Position numbers and translations under genes: made by a program. The notes below the pieces were generated by a model that saw nothing but the letters and a program-made list of their open reading frames with translations, made no database searches and was not told where the DNA came from. From a virus (taxonomy: Duplodnaviria > Caudoviricetes), in the IMG/VR virus record IMGVR_UViG_3300023246_000155, positions 1 through 41,679 of that record: a stretch of 41,679 nucleotides of DNA. One strand, written 5' to 3'. Shown one piece after another: positions 6,372-38,376 of the stretch. Each line of letters starts with the position of its first letter. Positions within the stretch are counted from its first letter, which is position 1.

Positions 6372-6875
6372 CTATTTACGTAATGCCTTACTTATTTTTT
6401 CTCTTGTTTTCTTAGAATGTTTAAATCCAGTCTTTAAATCGGTATTTGTTCTAGCTTCTAATCCTAGTTTTTTAAATCTATCATATATTGCTGATTTTGA
6501 TTTAAAACCAAAAAAGTCTGCTATTTTTTTATAATCCCACTTCTTTTCATAATATAAATTTTTCATTAATTCCAAATCAATTTCTATTTTATTAGCCCCG
6601 GGTATTCCATGAAGTTTCAAATGTGCCTTCTGTGTCATTAACATAAGATTTTCTATTCTGTTGTCTGAAGGATTGTTGTTTAAATGATGCAATATTAAGC
6701 CTTTTTGTATTTTTCCAAATTTCTTCTCCCACAAGTATCTATGTTCTAAATATTTTTTACCTTTAATCTCTATGCACCTATAACCATCTTTATTGATAGT
6801 TCCACCCTTATAATTATGTGGTCGTTTTCCATACATTATATTTTCTTTTCCGGGTTTGAATTTCATAAACAACAT
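6372..6875 (-). CDS. Free-standing HNH homing endonuclease with HTH and NUMOD3-like tail
   Basis: EHRYLWE..LHHLNNNPSDNRIENL HNH motif; C-terminal HSKKTREKISKA. Confidence 0.85.
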   Translation of the reverse strand: MLFMKFKPGKENIMYGKRPHNYKGGTINKDGYRCIEIKGKKYLEHRYLWEKKFGKIQKGLILHHLNNNPSDNRIENLMLMTQKAHLKLHGIPGANKIEIDLELMKNLYYEKKWDYKKIADFFGFKSKSAIYDRFKKLGLEARTNTDLKTGFKHSKKTREKISKALRK

Positions 6876-6906: not shown

Positions 6907-9900
6907 TTATTCAGAACTGATACTATCTTCTTCTTTTTCTAAAAACAGCAAAACAGAACGGCATCTGGGATGTGAGGGAGGACTTTGTCCAGACCAATCC
7001 TTATAATGAAAGTCTTCGTCTAGTCCGACTATCTGACCATCTAAATGCTTACAAATATCTGAGGTTCTGTCATCATGTGCGCTCAACCATTGTTTTTTCA
7101 TATCCAATCCAGAACCCTTCATTGCTAGTAGTTTTCCTTGATTTTCTGCTCTTCCGACTTCTGTTATAGCTATAATTTCGGCCCGATTATCTCCTACGTT
7201 GAATACTTTTGTCACTCTTGCTTTTAGCTTTGTTACCCCTTCCCCGTTGATTATTCCTCTGCCTAATTCGGCTTTTAGGTTGTTTGCTATTTCTTCTGTC
7301 ATTCCCTTTACATTATCGAACGTGTGGTCTTGTAAAAACTGAACTGCATTGTTATTCATTGGGATATTCTTGTCTATTTGCTTCTCTGAGGTGTCCCATC
7401 CAAATTGAAAGTTTACTTTGATGACTTCGTCTACTACCTTTCTAAATGTGAAAATCTCAAATATCTTCTTAATGATTCTTGGCAAATCGTCTATTCCCTT
7501 AATCTGTAGTAATTGTTCAGGCTTGCCTTGTTCTTCTAGTAATTCGAACACCTTCTTTTTATTGACCTTTAGGAGGTCTGTGATGTTCTTCTTTAGCTTC
7601 TTCTCGGATGGACTTAGTTCTTCTCCTGGTCCTAGTGTGTTTGGTGAGTCTGAGGTTGATGCCTTCTTGACATCCTTTGGCTTATCTCCTTTAGCCGGCT
7701 TGCCTGTCATCTTGTCACGATTGTTTGCGCTATCCCTATTGATTTTGTCTGCGTCCTGTTGTCGGGGATCCCCTACGTTTATGTTCGTTCCCTGATTTGG
7801 ACTTCTCTCTCCAACATTCTTGTCACCCCATTCTACATCATCTAATCCTTCTGCGTTACGCACTTCGTTGATTGTCTTAAGGTCTGATTCGGTCTGCAAC
7901 TTGTATAATCCCCACTTCTTTGTTTCTTCGTCTATGTCAAATATCTTGTATTTGTATCTTACACCTTCAACTCCAAACTCCGGGATGATTTCCGTGTTGA
8001 CGTGGTATTCGATTAATCTTAGTAAAGGGTAGATGATTCGTTTCTTTGCTACGCTTGTCTGTACGATTTGGTTTGCGGATCCTTTTGCATCTTCTGTGTT
8101 ATAATGAATACCTACCTTTCCATTTCTACAAGTAATGAATGGTCTGTTTCTTACGCTTGGACACCACATTGTTCCAGTATATTTTTCATTAAATCTTTGA
8201 GTAGATATAACAACTCTTGGTTCTTTTTGCGAAATATTAACATTAAGTTCATAGGTTTTATTCCATTTTGGGTTATCAAATTCTCTTTCGTAAATAGAAG
8301 CCTTATATCCTAATTTTAAACATATTTCAAACACATCCTCAATTAATCTCTTACTACTGGATGAATAATTAAATGAATCTTCCCCTTCCCTTCTTGAACC
8401 ATCTCCAGATACCAAGGCATCTAATAATATTCTTAATTGTGGCTTTGGTAAATTCTTTATTTCTTGTGGAATATGCTTTTCTAAGCTTCCACCAAATCTA
8501 CTCAAATAAAGGGCTAGAGATTTATTATTAAGTGTCCAGCAAACCTTTTCTCTTCTGAATCCCATTTTTTCAGCTAATGGTTTCATAATTTTAATACCCT
8601 CTGGTTTTACTTGTGCTATTTTAACATGAAATTGTTTTCTTTCTCTCATCTTCTTTAATACAGAACCTTCAGACAAATAATAACCTAAAAATTCACACCA
8701 TTCATCTATATTAAAAGTTGTTTGTTGATATCTTCCCTTATCTTTATTGTTTTCATATTCTACTAAGGGTATGTTGATTTCATCTAAATATTCCCCTTCC
8801 CACCCCAGTCCTCCTTGTAGAAATTTAACCGTATCCACATCTATTTCATTCGAGGGACTACATTTATATTCTTCTTTTTTAGGAGTCCTATAATACATTC
8901 TGTGATTATCGCTAACTAGAACATCTACACAATTATTTTTATAAAAATGAAAGTTTCTATCTTTAACGTCAAATGTATGAATTTTATCTGGTTTTATATA
9001 TTCTATTTCTTTTTGATTTATTATGGTGGCAATTTTATCATCTTCTTTAATTTCCCAATAATATTTGAGTCCGTTGTCTGTTAAAACCTGTGTATCATCT
9101 GAATAACAAAATCCTAGTTCTGTGGCTGTAATCCCGAAGGCTCCCCACACTAGCTTTGACCACCACTTCTGGCTTTCGATAAGTTCTAGCTCCTGGTTTG
9201 TGAATCCTAATCTCTCGAACTTTGGCATCTTGTTAACCATTGGGAGTTTGTGATTCGCTCTCTTCCAGTTACCCAGATCGTCCTGCACCTTTTGCTGCTG
9301 AATCCACTGTTGTCCGAACGCTGTCAAATCCTCACTACTCATCCCTTCTAATCCCAAGACTCCTGGAGGGATTGAGTTGTCGTTGAAATATTCGAGTTGA
9401 CTCTCCACTGCGTAGATTAATGTCTGAACCGTCTTTGCCAAAACTTCCATACTGCTTCGGCCATATAAATTGTCGGTCCTAACTTTCTTCTCAAACCACA
9501 CTACCTCTCGCCTTCCGAATGGGATTGGTCTGGCGCCTGTGTTGAATCCGTATTGGAAGTACGCGCCCTCTTCATGCGCATCCTCAGCCGTCATCTCTGC
9601 TTGGATTGCCGGATATTCCATTGTTTGGGTTTGCTCTTCTCCTTCCCCAAGAATGTTCTTCATTAAAATTAAGTCTGCCCTAGTCGTGTAAAATCCATAA
9701 GGATCGGGATTCTTTGTGAATGCCATTCCATCCCTTGCGCAAATCTCAACCATCTCTCCAAACATGTTAAAAATCTTCACCATGACTCCGGAGTTAAGTT
9801 CTAGTAAATCTGGCAACATCATTCTCACAATCATTTCCCATGACTCTTTGTTTGTGTTTGGGTTCTCGAAGAAGTCCTGCAATCTCTCAACATCTGCATC

Positions 9901-10290
9901 CTTTCCTGGTACTTCGTTTCCTGCTCGGTCCTCTGCTACGATTTCATATTGAATCGAACACACCTCATCGATGATTGCTGTCACACACATATCCACATAA
10001 ATTGAGGCTGCTAGTTGTCTGTAATAATTAAGGTCTTTATATCTTGGATATCCGAATGGTGCTCGGTAGAAAAAGTTTGGAATGTATGCTTTGGGTTGGC
10101 CGTCTCTCGTCTCTTCGTAAACGGTCACTGCATTGCTTCTAGTTGGTTTTGGGTTGCCGGTTGCTTTGTTGTATGGTCCTATTGATTGTCTTGTGTGCTG
10201 ATTTGCTTGCTGGCCGAATGGTTGTAGAACTGATTTACTACCCGTTTCCCAAGGGCAGTTTGAAAATATTGAGGCTGATTTTCTTTCCAT
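6907..10290 (-). CDS. Portal protein fused to MuF/SPP1 gp7 head-morphogenesis domain, containing an intein
   Basis: Portal motifs (YGRSSME, YFNDNSIPPGVL, TINEVRNAEGL); C-terminal WLSAHDDRTSDIC..PPSHPRCRS MuF motif. Confidence 0.9.
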   Translation of the reverse strand: MERKSASIFSNCPWETGSKSVLQPFGQQANQHTRQSIGPYNKATGNPKPTRSNAVTVYEETRDGQPKAYIPNFFYRAPFGYPRYKDLNYYRQLAASIYVDMCVTAIIDEVCSIQYEIVAEDRAGNEVPGKDADVERLQDFFENPNTNKESWEMIVRMMLPDLLELNSGVMVKIFNMFGEMVEICARDGMAFTKNPDPYGFYTTRADLILMKNILGEGEEQTQTMEYPAIQAEMTAEDAHEEGAYFQYGFNTGARPIPFGRREVVWFEKKVRTDNLYGRSSMEVLAKTVQTLIYAVESQLEYFNDNSIPPGVLGLEGMSSEDLTAFGQQWIQQQKVQDDLGNWKRANHKLPMVNKMPKFERLGFTNQELELIESQKWWSKLVWGAFGITATELGFCYSDDTQVLTDNGLKYYWEIKEDDKIATIINQKEIEYIKPDKIHTFDVKDRNFHFYKNNCVDVLVSDNHRMYYRTPKKEEYKCSPSNEIDVDTVKFLQGGLGWEGEYLDEINIPLVEYENNKDKGRYQQTTFNIDEWCEFLGYYLSEGSVLKKMRERKQFHVKIAQVKPEGIKIMKPLAEKMGFRREKVCWTLNNKSLALYLSRFGGSLEKHIPQEIKNLPKPQLRILLDALVSGDGSRREGEDSFNYSSSSKRLIEDVFEICLKLGYKASIYEREFDNPKWNKTYELNVNISQKEPRVVISTQRFNEKYTGTMWCPSVRNRPFITCRNGKVGIHYNTEDAKGSANQIVQTSVAKKRIIYPLLRLIEYHVNTEIIPEFGVEGVRYKYKIFDIDEETKKWGLYKLQTESDLKTINEVRNAEGLDDVEWGDKNVGERSPNQGTNINVGDPRQQDADKINRDSANNRDKMTGKPAKGDKPKDVKKASTSDSPNTLGPGEELSPSEKKLKKNITDLLKVNKKKVFELLEEQGKPEQLLQIKGIDDLPRIIKKIFEIFTFRKVVDEVIKVNFQFGWDTSEKQIDKNIPMNNNAVQFLQDHTFDNVKGMTEEIANNLKAELGRGIINGEGVTKLKARVTKVFNVGDNRAEIIAITEVGRAENQGKLLAMKGSGLDMKKQWLSAHDDRTSDICKHLDGQIVGLDEDFHYKDWSGQSPPSHPRCRSVLLFLEKEEDSISSE
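8098..9108 (-). mobile_element. Portal intein (337 aa) with in-frame LAGLIDADG endonuclease
   Basis: ELGF|CYSDDTQVLTDNG ... FLGYYLSEG ... LLDALVSGDG ... CRNGKVGIHYN|TED. Confidence 0.9.
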
Positions 10291-10391: not shown

Positions 10392-13300
10392 CTATTCTAC
10401 GAGAATCCTCCCATTAACCATTCGAACTTCTTTGCCATCGACTACCTTTGTTGTTATGCCTCCTTCTCCAAAAACTTTTAATTTGTTATTTTCCTCGATG
10501 GTGTCAATTGGATCCGTAAAAACCCACGCCGATTCGTTTGGGTTAATCTCAAAATACATTCTCATCATTAAGCAATTAGAAACAAGAATATCATTAGCAT
10601 AATAACAATGGTCTTTTTGAACCTTTAAATCATAAACGTCTATTTCCCCACATAAGCTTAGCAGCACAACTTCTTGAACAGCATTTGGTTGAGTCTTGTT
10701 TTTTGACGCTGAATTCTTTTCCGCAGTATAAACAATTTCTTCTTTCAAAATATCTTTTTTCTTTATACTTTGCGTTTTGAAAACATTTGTTTGAGCAATA
10801 TTTACCGCATTGGTGTACACTTTTGTCAATAAATTCTTTTTTACAGAATTCACATATTTTTTTAATGTTTTTGATATTTTGTTTTGCATGAATCCTTTGA
10901 TGTTCCGATGATTCAATGATTGTAAGATTCTTTGGATTATTATTGAAATGGTTTCCGTCAATATGGTGAACCGAGTATCCTTTAGGGATTGGTCTTCCTG
11001 TTGAATCCTCATAAACTCTTCTATGCAATGCTTCGATTTTTCCATTTCTTTTCTTGTAATAATATCTTCCACTGGATAAAAGCCTGTATCTTTCTCCTTT
11101 GTAAATAATCTCTTTATTCTCCATTTTAATAAATTTTTTGTGTTTAATATCTCTCCTTTGTACTCTCTCATCTTAAGGGCTTTAACCTTTTTAAAACTAT
11201 CATTTAGATAAATCTTGTGATTTGGTGTGCAATAAATTTCCTTACCATTATTAAATTTTATTTTTACAATTTGCTTTGATTTCTTCCTTTTTACTTCTAA
11301 AACTTTCCTGCTTCCATATGGAGTTATTACCTTTTCTCCAATATTAATATCCTTAATGAATTTATATCCATTTGTGGTTAATACGTTGGTATTTCCTACC
11401 AGACAATCACCTGCATCCGTTGACCTGCTAAGTGCGGCCGAGTCATGAAGCTCTTTCTTTGTTATCACTCTCATCTTCGCATCTTTGTCTGAGTCCATTT
11501 GCTTCATGACTTCTAAATCCTCAATAATTAATTCTTTGATGTTGATTGGCAGCTCCCTATAAATTCCAATCATCCCAGAGTTAACATGGTTTGCTAATTC
11601 GAACCAACACTGGCTTCTTAGGTTCTTGTAATTGTCCAGCCCCTCATCATCCGTGCTTTGCTTCTTTTTCTTTAGTGGCGCCGCGTTTGCTACGAATCCG
11701 ATAATCTCCGGCATTTCTTTCTTCAATCCGAACCCCACCCCAATCTCATCCACTAGGCAATGGCTTCTTGGGATTGTTCTGCTTGTTAGTATCTCATCCA
11801 ACTCACTACTCGACAGCCCTTCTGAAAATTGTAAAAGCTCAGTAATAAATAACCCATCCCAAATCGACACCATGCAACTATCCCTTCCGAATCCTGACTG
11901 GTCCACTATGCAATACTTCTTTCCTCGCTTGGCCTCATTTGTGAATAAATCAACGATTGAGTCGTAGTTGAATATCTTTGTTGGATCATCATCATACTCC
12001 CAATTCCCATTCAACAATCTCTCCCGGTTCTTTTTGTCTAGCTTCTTCAAATTCTCGATATAATGCACTGAGATAAATGGGTTGTCGTAAACACTCGCCG
12101 GCACGTATGCTTTGAAGGGTTCGAGTTCGTTGTCTCGCCACTTCTTATAAAAATCTCTATAAATAAAAGTCTTACAAGGATTGCTCCCCATCCCAATCTT
12201 TGGGATTAATCCGAACTCATCCAACTTGAACCTCATACGACTTCGAATGATTTGGTACGCCTGTTCAGTAATGTCACCCATCTCATCAATAAAGCCGTCA
12301 GTATACTCGGTCGAACCAAGACTTACAAACTCAGGGTCACTTGGATATAAAAATAAGTCCTTAAGATATTCTTCGCTTCCATTCGAGAAGGTGATATAAG
12401 ATGCCTGAGCATTGTAATTATAGTCTATACCCATTTGTAACCCCATTTTACTCGCAACTTCAAAAAATGTCAAGAGTGTTGATGCTTTCAAATCTTTAAG
12501 ACGTGCTCTCGCGAGAAATCCTCTGGAACCTTTATACTTCAATCTTCGTTTAATTTGCCAATAACATCCTGTAAAACTTTTCGAGTTGTGAATAATTATC
12601 CCATTAGCCAAAACATAGGATTCGTTCTCTGTTTCAATATCATACATTGGTTCATTTTGCCAATAAAATCTAATCTCTAAAATATCATTTAAATTTATTT
12701 CACATGCTTCCAACTTTTTCTTATTATAATGTCCTTTATACAACTTGGTTTTACTCCGTACTCCACTGCCAACTTCTTTCTCCCGTATTTCCTCGGGATG
12801 AATTTCTCCCTTATCTCTTTTACCTGTTGCTCGGTTAGTTTGCTCATTCCGTTCTGACTCCCTGGCTTCCTTTGAAGATTTGCTCGATTCCCTACATTCT
12901 CCATAAATGGGTTCATTCTTCCTAGTTTCTCCGCATGATGGAAGTTCTCCTTTCCAGTCATCCATTCTAGATTTTCTATTTGATTGTTTCGTTTGTTGAG
13001 ATCTTTGTGATTTACTTCTGGTTTGCTTTCCGGATTCGGAATAAATGTTTTGGCTACTAATCTGTGAATTTGTACGCCTTCCTTTCCTGTATTTAAAACA
13101 ATAGTTGTTCTCAAGTAACCCTTCTTTGTTATCCCGGGGTTCATTATCATAATCTTTCCAGAATTTTTCCAATTGATTGTCTTTAATCTCCCTTTGTTGC
13201 TTATCAAATACCGACCATTCGTTTCTTTTACTTCTACCCAATACTCCTCTGGCAAGTTCTCCAATCTCAACCCATTCTCCATCAAATAAGAATTTATGCG

Positions 13301-13613
13301 CTTGTGTGAAGTTGATTTTTGTTCCATCTTTTAATTTTAACTCTATACATCCAACGGAACCACCATTTATAAAAGTTTCTAACACTGGCTTATATTCCAG
13401 AATATTCTTTTTCTTATTAAAAGTAAGCACAATTTCACCTTTTTTAATATCTTTTAGAAACCTTTCCCCTAGGGTAGTGGTGGTTCTGACCTTAGTTACA
13501 CCAACTCCGCAACCACCGGCTGCGCCACCCATAAAGATTTCTGTGTGTTCATCATCATCTAGAGTATTAAGGATCTCACTTTGCTTTTGGCTTAAGGTTA
13601 TTTTTCTTATCAT
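10392..13613 (-). CDS. terL: Terminase large subunit with two inteins
   Basis: Walker A GGAAGG|SKS restored after removing intein 1; Walker B FIDE; GSNP motif; nuclease acidic residues IVDQSGFGRDS and STDAGD|CL. Confidence 0.93.
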   Translation of the reverse strand: MIRKITLSQKQSEILNTLDDDEHTEIFMGGAAGGCGVGVTKVRTTTTLGERFLKDIKKGEIVLTFNKKKNILEYKPVLETFINGGSVGCIELKLKDGTKINFTQAHKFLFDGEWVEIGELARGVLGRSKRNEWSVFDKQQREIKDNQLEKFWKDYDNEPRDNKEGLLENNYCFKYRKGRRTNSQISSQNIYSESGKQTRSKSQRSQQTKQSNRKSRMDDWKGELPSCGETRKNEPIYGECRESSKSSKEARESERNEQTNRATGKRDKGEIHPEEIREKEVGSGVRSKTKLYKGHYNKKKLEACEINLNDILEIRFYWQNEPMYDIETENESYVLANGIIIHNSKSFTGCYWQIKRRLKYKGSRGFLARARLKDLKASTLLTFFEVASKMGLQMGIDYNYNAQASYITFSNGSEEYLKDLFLYPSDPEFVSLGSTEYTDGFIDEMGDITEQAYQIIRSRMRFKLDEFGLIPKIGMGSNPCKTFIYRDFYKKWRDNELEPFKAYVPASVYDNPFISVHYIENLKKLDKKNRERLLNGNWEYDDDPTKIFNYDSIVDLFTNEAKRGKKYCIVDQSGFGRDSCMVSIWDGLFITELLQFSEGLSSSELDEILTSRTIPRSHCLVDEIGVGFGLKKEMPEIIGFVANAAPLKKKKQSTDDEGLDNYKNLRSQCWFELANHVNSGMIGIYRELPINIKELIIEDLEVMKQMDSDKDAKMRVITKKELHDSAALSRSTDAGDCLVGNTNVLTTNGYKFIKDINIGEKVITPYGSRKVLEVKRKKSKQIVKIKFNNGKEIYCTPNHKIYLNDSFKKVKALKMREYKGEILNTKNLLKWRIKRLFTKEKDTGFYPVEDIITRKEMEKSKHCIEEFMRIQQEDQSLKDTRFTILTETISIIIQRILQSLNHRNIKGFMQNKISKTLKKYVNSVKKNLLTKVYTNAVNIAQTNVFKTQSIKKKDILKEEIVYTAEKNSASKNKTQPNAVQEVVLLSLCGEIDVYDLKVQKDHCYYANDILVSNCLMMRMYFEINPNESAWVFTDPIDTIEENNKLKVFGEGGITTKVVDGKEVRMVNGRILVE
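10575..11405 (-). mobile_element. TerL intein 2 (277 aa) in the nuclease domain
   Basis: AGD|CLVGNTNVLTTNG, block B CTPNHKI, C-terminal VYDLKVQKDHCYYANDILVSN|C. Confidence 0.9.
10630..11124 (-). CDS. HNH endonuclease with Zn-ribbon repeats, nested in the -1 frame inside TerL intein 2
   Basis: ALHRRVYE..VHHIDGNHFNNNPKNL plus CxxC..CSxxC repeats; entirely within the intein coordinates. Confidence 0.85.
   Translation of the reverse strand: MENKEIIYKGERYRLLSSGRYYYKKRNGKIEALHRRVYEDSTGRPIPKGYSVHHIDGNHFNNNPKNLTIIESSEHQRIHAKQNIKNIKKICEFCKKEFIDKSVHQCGKYCSNKCFQNAKYKEKRYFERRNCLYCGKEFSVKKQDSTKCCSRSCAAKLMWGNRRL
12695..13327 (-). CDS. NUMOD4-HNH endonuclease with C-terminal HTH, nested in the +1 frame inside TerL intein 1
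   Basis: EYWVEV..YLISNKGRLK NUMOD4; IHRLVAKTFIPNP..VNHKDLNKRNNQIENLEW HNH; alternative start ATG at 13282. Confidence 0.88.
   Translation of the reverse strand: MEQKSTSHKRINSYLMENGLRLENLPEEYWVEVKETNGRYLISNKGRLKTINWKNSGKIMIMNPGITKKGYLRTTIVLNTGKEGVQIHRLVAKTFIPNPESKPEVNHKDLNKRNNQIENLEWMTGKENFHHAEKLGRMNPFMENVGNRANLQRKPGSQNGMSKLTEQQVKEIREKFIPRKYGRKKLAVEYGVKPSCIKDIIIRKSWKHVK
13366..13380 (-). promoter_or_regulatory. Candidate internal BRE/TATA promoter for the nested HNH
   Basis: AGAAACTTTTATAAA about 40 nt upstream of ATG 13327; resembles intergenic promoters at 6887 and 27381. Confidence 0.4.
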
Positions 13614-14001
13614 CTTTGATTTTCATAATTGATTCTTCTTTCATTTTCTTAATTGTCTCATCACTCATGATTACTTCTTGAAAGGTTATACTTTGCTCTC
13701 CAGAGTGTTCTATTTCCTGCTTTTGTCCCCATCCCCTTTGTTTTCCTACTTTGGAGTTTGTTAATAACCACTTGCTTTGGTCTATATCTCTGTTTGATAA
13801 TATTGACATTGCTACTATATCTTCTGCGTTTTCTACCAATTTAACAACTTCTAAATCTAGTAGCTCTCGCATCTTTGGTCGCTTTTTTAAGAATAATCCT
13901 ACTGCTTGTCTGGTCTTCTCCATCTTCTCGGCTATCCTTGCTTGGTTTCCGCCTGAGTTTACGAGTGCCGCCTTGAATGTCTTTTCAGTTATCTTTGCCA
14001 T
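13576..14001 (-). CDS. terS: Terminase small subunit
   Basis: Directly upstream of terL; N-terminal HTH (GGNQARIAEKMEKTRQAV) and KWLL..RGWGQKQEIEHSGE motif; likely start MAKITEK. Confidence 0.75.
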   Translation of the reverse strand: MAKITEKTFKAALVNSGGNQARIAEKMEKTRQAVGLFLKKRPKMRELLDLEVVKLVENAEDIVAMSILSNRDIDQSKWLLTNSKVGKQRGWGQKQEIEHSGEQSITFQEVIMSDETIKKMKEESIMKIKDDKKNNLKPKAK

Positions 14002-15933: not shown

Positions 15934-16353
15934 TTACCTCCATTTTTTTTTGTTTAATTTTCCTGAAAATGTATCTGTAGTTTTATGACACTCTTTACAG
16001 AGTGTTCTTCCATTATCTATAGCAAATCTTAATTCTGGGAATAAGGCGAATGGTTTGATGTGGTCTGCATTTAAGTTTCCACCTCTTTGCCCACAAAATC
16101 TACAAGTCCAATTATCTCTTTTAAATACCGCTTCTCTCCATAATCTATATTCCATAGAATTTCTTATTTTTATATTTTTAGAAGATATTCCACCTTTCCA
16201 ATTCCAATGTTTATTCCCGCTTTGTAATTTGTGTCCTTTTTTAAAGCCATTTTCAATACTCTTAGGATTGTATCCTTTATGTTTATAACTCTCCTTCCTC
16301 TTAAGTGATCGTTCTTTCTCTTTCTCTTTTCTATGATATTTTGCGTAGGGCAT
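15934..16353 (-). CDS. HNH endonuclease
   Basis: WREAVFKRDNWTCRFC..ADHIKP..NGRTLCKECH; GGAGGTGA RBS before MPYAKY. Confidence 0.85.
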   Translation of the reverse strand: MPYAKYHRKEKEKERSLKRKESYKHKGYNPKSIENGFKKGHKLQSGNKHWNWKGGISSKNIKIRNSMEYRLWREAVFKRDNWTCRFCGQRGGNLNADHIKPFALFPELRFAIDNGRTLCKECHKTTDTFSGKLNKKKWR

Positions 16354-16726
16354 TTTCACCTCCCTTCTCAGTTTCTTCAATTTTACTAAACTCGCAGCAT
16401 TCCTGTGGACTCCTTGTTAAATTAACAGCCGTCAACTCTATATCACTCAAGACTCCATTTTTGTTGTTATGATAATTTTTCTTAATCTCCTTTAAAAGTT
16501 TGATCTGCGATTTGCCATAGTCTGTAAGTGTGATAACAATTTCCTTCCCGCGCTTTCCATCTCCTTCGGTTTTGTTGACTATGTTTGATCTTGCCCACCT
16601 GGATATTAATGTTGATGCAGCACTCAACGCCAAATCACAACGTTTTGCTAACTCAGAAATATTCCTAGGCTTTTTTGAAATCTCAATTAAGAAATTCATA
16701 TTTTTTTGATTAATTATCTCCAACAT
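16331..16726 (-). CDS. Winged-helix transcriptional regulator (ArsR/MarR-like)
   Basis: PRNISELAKRCDLALSAASTLISRW..IVITLTDYG wHTH pattern. Confidence 0.7.
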   Translation of the reverse strand: MLEIINQKNMNFLIEISKKPRNISELAKRCDLALSAASTLISRWARSNIVNKTEGDGKRGKEIVITLTDYGKSQIKLLKEIKKNYHNNKNGVLSDIELTAVNLTRSPQECCEFSKIEETEKGGENALRKIS

Positions 16727-35657: not shown

Positions 35658-36215
35658 TTAGTTTTTTTTACCTCCCGTGTTATTTAATTTTAGTTTGATT
35701 CCTAATCCTCGTTTCCCAATGTTTTCATCTAGTAAAATATGACAGGGTTTACAATAAGTTATTCCATTTCCTATATCCCATAATTCCTTACATTTTCTTG
35801 CCTGTTCGGATGTAGTTATGTTAAATAGTTTTAATAGTTTTGAAAATGCGATTATATGGTGTGCTTCCAAATATCCTTTTTTTCCACAATGTTGACAATG
35901 ATAATTATCACGTTTGAAAACATCTGCTCTCCATTCTAAATATTCTCTCATCATCATAATTCTTCCCCTTAATTCTCTCTTAAATCCAGTAAATTTTTTA
36001 TCTCCAGTCTGTTCTAAACTTTTATTTATTCTAGATTCCATGCTCCAAGTATGACATTCCTTATGATAATTTGCATGACCTTCTTGGAATCCTGATTTCT
36101 TATTATAATTTCCAGTTTTAACTTTGTAACCTTTCTTTCCCTTGTTCCATGGGATGCATCCCTTTTTGAATTGTGTTTCTGGATTTGCACTCTGTCCTTT
36201 CTCAAATTGTGCCAT
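35658..36215 (-). CDS. HNH endonuclease
   Basis: FKKGCIPWNKG N-terminal motif; WRADVFKRDNYHCQHC..EAHH..NGITYCKPCH. Confidence 0.85.
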   Translation of the reverse strand: MAQFEKGQSANPETQFKKGCIPWNKGKKGYKVKTGNYNKKSGFQEGHANYHKECHTWSMESRINKSLEQTGDKKFTGFKRELRGRIMMMREYLEWRADVFKRDNYHCQHCGKKGYLEAHHIIAFSKLLKLFNITTSEQARKCKELWDIGNGITYCKPCHILLDENIGKRGLGIKLKLNNTGGKKN

Positions 36216-37132: not shown

Positions 37133-37927
37133 CTAATTCGCGAATTGTTTTGTTATCTCTTCTTGGATAATTCCTGCTAGTTTGTTTCGAATCGTGTTTC
37201 TTATGAATGGGTTTGGTCTTGTTCCTGGATGTTTAACAACCTTAGCGAACACCTTGCCATTTCCTACTTTGAATTTGAGTGCCTTCTTGTCTTTTGGCTT
37301 GATTATATGTGGTGGCGTGTTATGTGTGAATATACCGTTAGCAAAGAACGTATCTTCTCCTTCTAATGTTAAATTATAAATTGTTGATTTATTCATCAAA
37401 ATAGTTTCAATATCAATTATTTCTTCTGTTATAAATTCTTCGAATTGTTTCTTTGTGTTTTTTCCATATCCATATTTTTTATGAAATTCTTTATGATGTT
37501 TTTCACATAAGGCAACTCCATTCTTAACATCATATCTTTCTTTTGGAAATTTATCAAATCCATTAAGATGATGGGATTCTATTTTTTTAATCCCACAAAT
37601 AACACAAAATTTATCACGTTTTTTTACTGCTCTAACCCAAACTTTTTCTTCCTTATTTTTTCTTGGATTTGTTATTCCTCCATTCCAATTGTGATTTTTT
37701 TTCCCAGTCTGAGATAATCCTTGCTTTGTTCTTGTTTCTTTAGATAACTTCCAATGCTTTCCTTTAGAATAATCATGTCTAGAATATTTATGATAGCATT
37801 CCTGTGAACAAAATTTGGCAGTATCTTTTCTTGATGGGCTAACAAAAAACTTTTTCCCGCATTTACATTCTATTTTTATTTCTGTTATAATACCCTTATT
37901 CCAAGGTGTTCCCCCAGCCCTTACCAT
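37133..37927 (-). CDS. HNH endonuclease - intein C-half - gp10 C-extein
   Basis: VKKRDKFCVIC..ESHH..NGVALCEKHH HNH; IYNLTLEGEDTFFANGIFTHN|TPPHII..HPGTRPNPF. Confidence 0.88.
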   Translation of the reverse strand: MVRAGGTPWNKGIITEIKIECKCGKKFFVSPSRKDTAKFCSQECYHKYSRHDYSKGKHWKLSKETRTKQGLSQTGKKNHNWNGGITNPRKNKEEKVWVRAVKKRDKFCVICGIKKIESHHLNGFDKFPKERYDVKNGVALCEKHHKEFHKKYGYGKNTKKQFEEFITEEIIDIETILMNKSTIYNLTLEGEDTFFANGIFTHNTPPHIIKPKDKKALKFKVGNGKVFAKVVKHPGTRPNPFIRNTIRNKLAGIIQEEITKQFAN

Positions 37928-38193
37928 ATTTTTTTTATCCTATCTCTGACTTTTAATTTATGAGCTTTCTTCCATCCTTTACTTGTCCAGATGGGATGGT
38001 CCTCTGTGATTTCTAATTTCTTATTTTTGGTTTTCATAATAATCTTTTTTATTGGATACCCAATCTCCATTTTTTCTTTTTGGATTAATTTTTTGTATTC
38101 TTTTCCAGTCCATATTAATTCCCCTATTTTCAAATCTTTTAATTTTTTGTTTCCTTTCTTAGTTTTAATAGGAATAGTGTCTTTAAAAAAGCA
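37319..38193 (-). mobile_element. Frame-broken (split or frameshift-dependent) HNH intein in the gp10 gene
   Basis: IntN starts at C (38193) and stops at 37921; IntC ends HN at 37319 in the -1 frame. Confidence 0.85.
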
Positions 38194-38376
38194 TCCAAAC
38201 TCCACATAAAAAGCATAATCGACTATTGAGATTGTTAGTGTCATCCCGTCTGATGTGACCCTGATTGAATTTCTTAATCTCCCAGTATCTACTGGAGCTG
38301 CTATAATTAGTTCGTTCTGAATCCTTATTGCTATTCGTGGGATTGCTCTCCAAATCGCTTCTTCAATCTCATTCAT
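37921..38376 (-). CDS. HK97 gp10-like N-extein plus intein N-half
   Basis: APVDTGRLRNSI..YAFYVEFG|CFFKDTIPIKT..ITEDHPIWTSKGWKKA. Confidence 0.88.
   Translation of the reverse strand: MNEIEEAIWRAIPRIAIRIQNELIIAAPVDTGRLRNSIRVTSDGMTLTISIVDYAFYVEFGCFFKDTIPIKTKKGNKKLKDLKIGELIWTGKEYKKLIQKEKMEIGYPIKKIIMKTKNKKLEITEDHPIWTSKGWKKAHKLKVRDRIKKIW

What the first reader, a model, noticed from the sequence alone, without database searches (positions are those of the whole stretch)
12585..13511. Dual-coded intein: a complete NUMOD4-HNH gene hidden in the +1 frame of TerL intein 1
Seen: the intein has normal splicing blocks at both ends, but the ~190 aa between them is charged, motif-free sequence (ARGVLGRSKRNEW...KKKLEAC). 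That stretch is the alternate-frame reading of an intact NUMOD4-HNH-HTH gene (12695..13327) with its own start and stop. The terminase frame has no stop across >600 nt of AT-rich DNA, which implies selection on both frames. A BRE/TATA-like AGAAACTTTTATAAA lies in the IntN coding region ~40 nt upstream of the HNH ATG. Established: canonical inteins carry the endonuclease in frame, and fractured genes place a free-standing endonuclease between split halves. Inference: this is a third architecture, a contiguous intein with an independently expressed overprinted endonuclease, which uncouples homing from late terminase expression. I cannot confirm from here that it is undescribed.
Basis: partly seen in the sequence, partly recalled or inferred. 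Interest (0 to 1): 0.92.

Follow-up and report, generated by a model that had tools for sequence, protein, structure and literature searches.

The report
Terminase intein hiding out-of-frame HNH gene
A virus's DNA-packaging gene carries a likely self-splicing insert (an intein) whose middle also spells an intact DNA-cutting enzyme gene in a shifted reading frame, which likely spreads the insert; the layout is real and kept by selection, but this kind of layout is already published for other enzymes.

Summary
Observation confirmed. TerL intein 1 (13511..12585) is stop-free and holds an intact NUMOD4-HNH ORF (13327..12695) in the +1 frame. It is not an artefact: 11 of 11 distinct intein-nested copies are open in the intein frame, against 0 of 152 free-standing relatives. 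HNH-frame dN/dS is 0.07-0.23 and intein-frame dN/dS 0.8-2.4. Empty alleles with 99.6% identical exteins, and intein 2 identical in 78%-identical exteins, point to homing. The closest free-standing HNH1 relatives sit directly upstream of terL, which suggests capture of a terL-targeting nuclease by a mini-intein. The architecture is not new: Gosselin 2025 and Phillips 2026 report out-of-frame endonucleases in contiguous inteins. My searches found no out-of-frame HNH intein in print, so this is a new variant. The internal promoter is plausible but untested; the timing claim is speculation. The scan noted this layout before on other DNA (52 findings).

The parts
10392..13613 (-). terL, large terminase precursor, 1073 aa with two inteins; 487 aa after removing both
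   Evidence: extein 37-39% identical to annotated TerL of Cellulophaga, Bacteroides and Flavobacterium phages
13512..13613 (-). N-extein (34 aa) ending in the Walker A segment GGAAGG
   Evidence: empty alleles read GGAAGG-SKS or -AKS
12585..13511 (-). Intein 1, 309 aa: Cys1, TxxH (T69/H72), D291, H308-N309, +1 Ser; about 185-aa disordered linker
12695..13327 (-). HNH1: NUMOD4-HNH endonuclease gene with a predicted C-terminal three-helix (HTH-like) part, 210 aa, +1 frame relative to the intein
   Evidence: Pfam; I-HmuI 1u3e by profile 1e-20 and by fold 2e-8; helices in model
13366..13380 (-). BRE/TATA-like motif inside IntN codons L-E-T-F-I, 38 nt upstream of the HNH1 ATG; candidate internal promoter
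   Evidence: function untested
11406..12584 (-). Middle extein (393 aa, ATPase and most of the nuclease domain)
10575..11405 (-). Intein 2, 277 aa, at DAGD|C near the TerL C-terminus; Cys1, Ser-Asn end, +1 Cys
10630..11124 (-).
   Evidence: Pfam HNH_3 4.5e-12; frames; dN/dS 0.14-0.33 in 6 of 6 pairs
10392..10574 (-). C-extein (60 aa)

Best explanation
The terL gene carries a contiguous intein with an intact HNH endonuclease gene written in its +1 frame; the intein likely splices itself out of the terminase, while the separately translated HNH likely cuts intein-less terL copies so that the whole insert is copied in (homing). Shown: both frames are open, the HNH protein is under purifying selection, the intein-frame linker drifts freely except that stops are excluded, and the insert is patchily spread among near-identical terL genes. 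Inferred: (1) TerL is made as one precursor, the HINT domain folds around a disordered loop of about 185 aa and splices out; (2) HNH1 is made by its own initiation at 13327, possibly from an internal archaeal-type promoter in IntN; (3) by analogy to I-HmuI it nicks DNA at or near the empty Walker A site in a co-infecting relative, and repair copies the intein with short flanks; (4) the element arose when a free-standing terL-associated HNH gene landed in a Walker A mini-intein in a phase where the -1 frame could be cleared of stops. Intein 2 likely works the same way with a different HNH.
For: Two open frames and domains. Layout kept in 11 of 11 distinct nested copies down to about 35% HNH identity; 0 of 152 free-standing relatives of at least 100 codons are open in that frame, mean 12.6 stops per 100 codons (best 80 loci of each of two capped scans plus earlier loci). 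dN/dS 0.07-0.23 in the HNH frame in 18 of 28 pairs (the other 10 had saturated dS) against 0.83-2.36 in the intein frame in 28 of 28. Of 21 related terL loci covering the site, 6 hold intein 1 (two are identical to the window) and 15 are empty. L017 is 99.6% identical over the 1179-nt middle extein and lacks both inteins; intein 2 is 100% identical over 831 nt in L005 and L035, whose exteins are 78% identical; L007's intein 1 is a mosaic. In L003 and L007 a stop four codons into HNH1 is followed at once by a new ATG with GGAG upstream. Nested HNHs group with six free-standing HNHs lying just upstream of terL (SH-aLRT 86-94, quick tree).
Against: No splicing, expression or cleavage was shown. 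HNH1 has no clear Shine-Dalgarno site in the window, and the TATA-like motif is missing in L011, L062, L091 and L147. Direct evidence of recent transfer is strong for intein 2 but weaker for intein 1, whose alleles differ about as much as their exteins (82% against 78% in L005). The tree does not resolve whether nested HNHs have one origin (the careful search and the one-clade test did not finish). Empty alleles at site 2 all carry a non-nucleophile at +1 (Val, Thr or Ala) in the loci seen, so homing there must also convert that codon.
Confidence: 0.8

Rival explanations
1. Same element, but HNH1 has no promoter of its own and is translated by internal initiation on the late terL message, so it is not uncoupled from terminase expression.
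For: The motif coincides with codons for a conserved IntN strand (L-E-T-F-I); it is missing in four distant nested copies; my search pattern was shaped after seeing it; I saw no comparable motif at that distance before HNH2.
Against: The same pattern occurs at 7 places on the coding strand (2 matches on the other strand); 5 of the 7 are outside ATG ORFs of 80 aa or more, which cover 85% of the strand. Its five codons are identical in 5 of 5 close alleles while 21 of 29 other conserved IntN codons vary synonymously. L059 has a variant plus AGGAG before its ATG.
Confidence: 0.35
2. The HNH is reached by a programmed +1 frameshift from the terminase frame, giving an extein-IntN-HNH fusion.
For: Weak initiation signals at the HNH1 ATG in the window.
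Against: An ATG is kept at the ORF start in 7 of the 8 aligned nested copies and two codons into the eighth; L003 and L007 show a stop-restart; free-standing relatives have the same N-terminus as separate genes.
Confidence: 0.06
3. The HNH has been domesticated as a packaging cofactor, like the HNH proteins that assist some terminases (HK97 gp74, recalled).
For: The family is tied to terL, either nested or just upstream.
Against: A near-identical terL (L017) lacks it, as do 15 of 21 relatives; its structure is the two-domain I-HmuI homing type; being beside terL is also what a terL-targeting homing nuclease would show.
Confidence: 0.05
4. The HNH ORF is a dead relic of a recent insertion.
For: No expression data.
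Against: dN/dS well below 1 across alleles with dS up to about 3; invariant His107, Asn115 and Asn128 in 12 of 12 aligned sequences.
Confidence: 0.02
5. An ordinary in-frame HNH intein misassembled with two compensating indels.
For: None.
Against: Overlapping contigs from three public runs (X11, X15, X16) match the window without differences from 12153 to 13800; the only indels listed are balanced 1-nt pairs within 11 nt in diverged alleles (contigs, not raw reads). Diverged relatives keep the layout. Errors cannot leave the terminase frame open for 211 codons.
Confidence: 0.005

Closest known systems
[quoted passage not shown]
   Same: Contiguous intein, HEN in another frame of the same strand, unstructured in-frame linker, many non-canonical cases in terminase, proposed origin by invasion of a free-standing HEN, signs of continued transfer.
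   Different: HNH HENs there are described as in frame in the parts I read. [quoted passage not shown]
Cyanobacterial dnaX intein with a +2-frame LAGLIDADG (Phillips, DeSimone, Gogarten, bioRxiv 10.64898/2026.09.14.751524; seen: abstract, Results, section 17). It credits Gorbalenya 1998, which I did not see.
   Same: Out-of-frame HE with its own start signals, low omega in the HE frame and high omega in the intein frame, empty and filled alleles coexisting.
   Different: Cellular gene and LAGLIDADG enzyme; mini-intein alleles occur there, and I saw none for intein 1 among 21 loci.
ShiLan domain: out-of-frame HNH in a phage DNA methylase (Arsenault et al. 2025, PMC11855218; seen: abstract, sections 18-19)
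   Same: Hidden HNH gene with its own start and stop inside a stop-free host frame; patchy spread.
   Different: No splicing domain there; here the insert is flanked by HINT blocks and sits in a Walker A motif.
I-HmuI (PDB 1u3e)
   Same: N-terminal NUMOD4 plus HNH core; profile E 1e-20, fold E 2e-8, rmsd 2.6 over 117 columns.
   Different: The match ends at about residue 140; Asn stands where I-HmuI has Asp before the catalytic His; I-HmuI is intron-encoded (recalled).
Fractured genes with split inteins (Dassa et al. 2009, PMC2677866; seen: passages)
   Same: Free-standing-type endonuclease between intein halves, including a terminase case.
   Different: There the host gene is broken into two ORFs; here the terminase frame is unbroken.

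Membership tests
Class 1 intein | Cys/Ser at position 1, block B TxxH, block F Asp, terminal His-Asn, +1 Ser/Thr/Cys | tested here: met
   C1, T69, H72, D291, H308, N309 invariant in 6 of 6 alleles; +1 Ser
Class 1 intein | HINT fold | tested here: met
   Foldseek top hits are inteins (1mi8, E 2.6e-4, N-terminal part; low-confidence model); TIGR01443 above cut-off, TIGR01445 below cut-off for intein 1
Class 1 intein | Removal restores a conserved host protein | tested here: met
   15 empty alleles read straight through the site
Class 1 intein | Protein splicing activity | not testable with these tools
   needs an assay
Non-canonical intein with out-of-frame HEN | Unbroken intein frame with a complete endonuclease ORF in another frame | tested here: met
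Non-canonical intein with out-of-frame HEN | In-frame linker without a recognisable domain | tested here: met
   no Pfam hit at E<=1 in 4 of 4 intein 1 linkers; low pLDDT
Non-canonical intein with out-of-frame HEN | Purifying selection in the HEN frame and patchy distribution | tested here: met
I-HmuI-like HNH homing endonuclease | NUMOD4 plus HNH core with catalytic His and conserved Asn residues | tested here: met
I-HmuI-like HNH homing endonuclease | Site-specific nicking of the empty allele | not testable with these tools
   needs a cleavage assay
Canonical intein with in-frame HNH | HEN in the intein's frame | tested here: not met
   offset 286 nt, frame +1; none of the 182 loci with an HNH1-profile hit was classed in frame
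Fractured gene (split intein plus free-standing HEN) | Host gene in two ORFs | tested here: not met
   one 1073-aa ORF
ShiLan-type insertion | No splicing domain | tested here: not met
   HINT blocks present

The most novel reading that the evidence does not exclude
Out-of-frame nesting is the normal way HNH endonucleases ride terminase inteins, not a rarity: free-standing HNHs that already target terL get captured into mini-inteins at the same target, keep their own start signals (built here into intein codons as an archaeal promoter), and go on homing. This one genome shows four intein-endonuclease layouts side by side (in-frame LAGLIDADG, +1 nested HNH, +2 nested HNH, split intein with HNH fused to IntC), a natural series for how inteins gain endonucleases.
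Probability: 0.45. Interest if true: 0.62.

Novelty: new variant of a known kind. Interest (0 to 1): 0.4.

Why it matters
The layout itself is published, so the surprise is limited. Three things add value. First, the papers call it rare, but for the HNH2 family 36 of 50 distinct relatives are nested this way, and three GenBank phages carry the HNH unannotated inside terL, so gene callers hide these nucleases and their inteins look degraded. Second, the nearest free-standing HNH1 relatives sit at the 5' end of terL, which gives a concrete donor pool for the proposed route from free-standing nuclease to intein HEN. Third, a 200-codon overlap in which one frame only avoids stops is a clean model for how long overlapping genes persist, and cultured phage TJE1 makes homing by such an element testable.

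Tried and rejected
Expression: no RNA holder listed among 24 runs, so nothing can be said on transcription. Sigma-70 scan: 11 sites against 12.8 expected, none upstream of HNH1 on its strand. First genome scan with the single extein found nothing; an alignment then gave a Pacearchaeota MAG contig (72%, 1.6 kb) and a Nanoarchaeota MAG contig (56%, 92 kb) as best of 161, so the archaeal host is inferred only. Integrase homologues gave no host names. No cultured phage holds intein 1 DNA over 80% of its length; the 30 listed of 94 HNH1 protein hits are not under terL. PAE1 looked nested but is free-standing between terL and portal. L060 and L064 look like intron-interrupted terL, but Rfam showed no intron, so this stays open. 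The careful tree and the one-clade test did not finish; only the quick tree is used. Literature searches for an out-of-frame HNH in an intein: searches returned the papers cited; searches returned none. The library lacks most subscription papers, and bioRxiv supplements (Gosselin's cluster table) were closed and may hold HNH cases.
Full report
OBSERVATION. The window looks like a tailed-virus genome (terminase, portal, capsid, tail tube). terL runs 13613..10392 on the minus strand as one 1073-aa ORF. Intein 1 occupies aa 35-343 (13511..12585) in the Walker A motif, with Cys1, T69/H72, D291, H308-N309 and Ser+1, and a predicted HINT fold. A 210-aa ORF (13327..12695) lies in the +1 frame and scores as NUMOD4 plus HNH_3. 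Its only solved relative by profile is I-HmuI, which is also the only fold match at E<=0.001. The in-frame linker has no Pfam hit and is predicted disordered.

NOT AN ARTEFACT. Overlapping contigs from three public salt-lake runs match the window without differences across intein 1; listed indels are balanced 1-nt pairs in diverged alleles, and one contig joins across the intein as an empty allele (contigs only, no piece spans the whole stretch). Diverged relatives keep both frames open: L003, L004, L007, L010 and L059 in related terL genes, L011, L062, L091 and L147 in distant terL genes where the intein sits one codon earlier, and the partial L012.

SELECTION IN BOTH FRAMES. Among 165 distinct HNH1 relatives, the 11 nested copies have no stop in the intein frame; none of the 152 free-standing copies of at least 100 codons is open there (mean 12.6 stops per 100 codons, minimum 3.4). 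Two shorter sequences were left out of that count. In the window, 0 of 46 at-risk codons end in T against 40 of 78 others, and the exact chance of an open frame under genome codon usage is about 1e-9; for HNH2 it is 6e-4. Pairwise dN/dS is 0.07-0.23 in the HNH1 frame (18 of 28 pairs; 10 saturated) and 0.83-2.36 in the intein frame. HNH2 gives 0.14-0.33 against 0.68-1.65 in 6 pairs. So the nuclease is conserved as a protein and the linker only has to stay open.

MOBILITY. Of 26 related terL loci, 21 cover site 1: 6 hold the intein (two identical to the window) and 15 are empty, 9 with Ser and 6 with Ala at +1; Ala could not support splicing (the +1 rule is established knowledge). L017 is 99.6% identical over the middle extein and lacks both inteins. 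Intein 2 is identical over 831 nt in L005 and L035, whose exteins are 78% identical. L007's intein 1 matches L003 at the 5' end (100% over 300 nt) and the window at the 3' end (96.7% over 150 nt). This is the pattern expected from homing. It is direct for intein 2 and less so for intein 1, whose alleles are 82% identical in 78%-identical exteins.

ORIGIN. The best-scoring free-standing HNH1 relatives (L061, L063, L142-L145) end at or overlap the start of a terL gene. In a quick tree of 70 proteins they form one group with all 10 nested copies included and with L060 (support 94 and 86); branching inside is unresolved. I infer that a nuclease already aimed at the 5' end of terL was captured by a Walker A mini-intein. 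The number of captures is open.

BREADTH. For HNH2, 80 best loci of 486 reduce to 50 distinct sequences: 36 nested in +2 in a TerL intein, 12 free, 2 near an intein but with stops. Tetrasphaera phage TJE1, Clostridium phage phiCDHM19 and Acinetobacter phage Highwayman carry the same layout with only terL annotated; a fourth candidate, PAE1, is free-standing. Earlier loci also showed +1 nesting (L049, L052, L053) and in-frame HNH inteins (L054, L055).

EXPRESSION. The host is likely a DPANN archaeon: the best genome hits of the extein are Pacearchaeota (72%) and Nanoarchaeota (56%) MAG contigs, then 46% or less; this is inference. The BRE/TATA-like motif at 13380..13366 matches a pattern found at 7 places on the coding strand, 5 of them intergenic, and its five codons are invariant in five close alleles (about three lineages) while 21 of 29 other conserved codons vary. 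The pattern was chosen after seeing the motif, and four distant nested copies lack it. In L003 and L007 a stop early in HNH1 is followed by a new ATG with GGAG upstream, which favours independent initiation. No RNA data were available, so the promoter and the timing claim remain untested.

COMPARISON. Gosselin et al. 2025 (abstract, passages and section 15 read) describe contiguous inteins with a frame-3 endonuclease VII-like HEN and antisense HENs, and propose invasion by free-standing HENs. Phillips et al. 2026 (abstract, Results, section 17) show a +2 LAGLIDADG in dnaX with the same selection pattern and trace the idea to Gorbalenya 1998 (not seen). Arsenault et al. 2025 (abstract, sections 18-19) describe an out-of-frame HNH without an intein. 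Dassa et al. 2009 (passages) describe the split form. The element meets the tested features of the out-of-frame class and fails the canonical, fractured and ShiLan definitions. My searches found no out-of-frame HNH inside an intein, within a library that lacks most subscription papers and the preprints' supplements. The scan's notes list 52 findings holding my search words, in at least 50 genomes (8 shown); they agree but are not independent evidence.

VERDICT. Real, selected in both frames and likely mobile; a new HNH variant of a published architecture. Interest 0.4.

Noticed in passing
window 38376..37921 and 37927..37133 (-): Split intein in a gene of the tail/neck region: N-extein plus IntN ends in a stop that overlaps the ATG of a Cys-rich HNH protein fused in frame to IntC and the C-extein. 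Contigs of 4 of 4 runs show no indel, and L380 (61% identical) keeps the split with a different junction. An HNH fused to IntC may be less well known than the main finding; I did not search papers for it.
   Followed up: partly
window 10290..6907 (-): Portal-MuF fusion with a canonical in-frame LAGLIDADG intein, so the genome holds four inteins in four layouts.
   Followed up: partly
window 6875..6372 (-): Free-standing HNH_3 gene with a near copy of the same BRE/TATA-like motif 13 nt upstream of its first ATG.
   Followed up: partly
L020, L022-L024, L028, L029 at the terL Walker A site; empty alleles at site 2: Empty alleles with Ala (site 1) or Val/Thr/Ala (site 2) at +1 cannot host a splicing intein unless homing converts that codon; filled site 2 alleles have Cys or Ser.
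   Followed up: partly
L011, L062, L091, L147: The related +1 HNH intein sits one codon earlier in Walker A (before xGK/xAK) than in the window, a shift of insertion site within one motif.
   Followed up: partly
L060:1350-2056 and L064:1-695: HNH1 relatives that seem to interrupt the 5' end of terL like intron-encoded ORFs; Rfam found no intron.
   Followed up: partly
L049:2710-4494: HNH nested in +1 inside an intein of a MuF-like head protein, so the layout is not confined to terminase.
   Followed up: no
window 16380..15934 and 36215..35658 (-): Further free-standing HNH-like ORFs (Pfam HNH for the first; the second by eye): the genome is rich in such nucleases.
   Followed up: no
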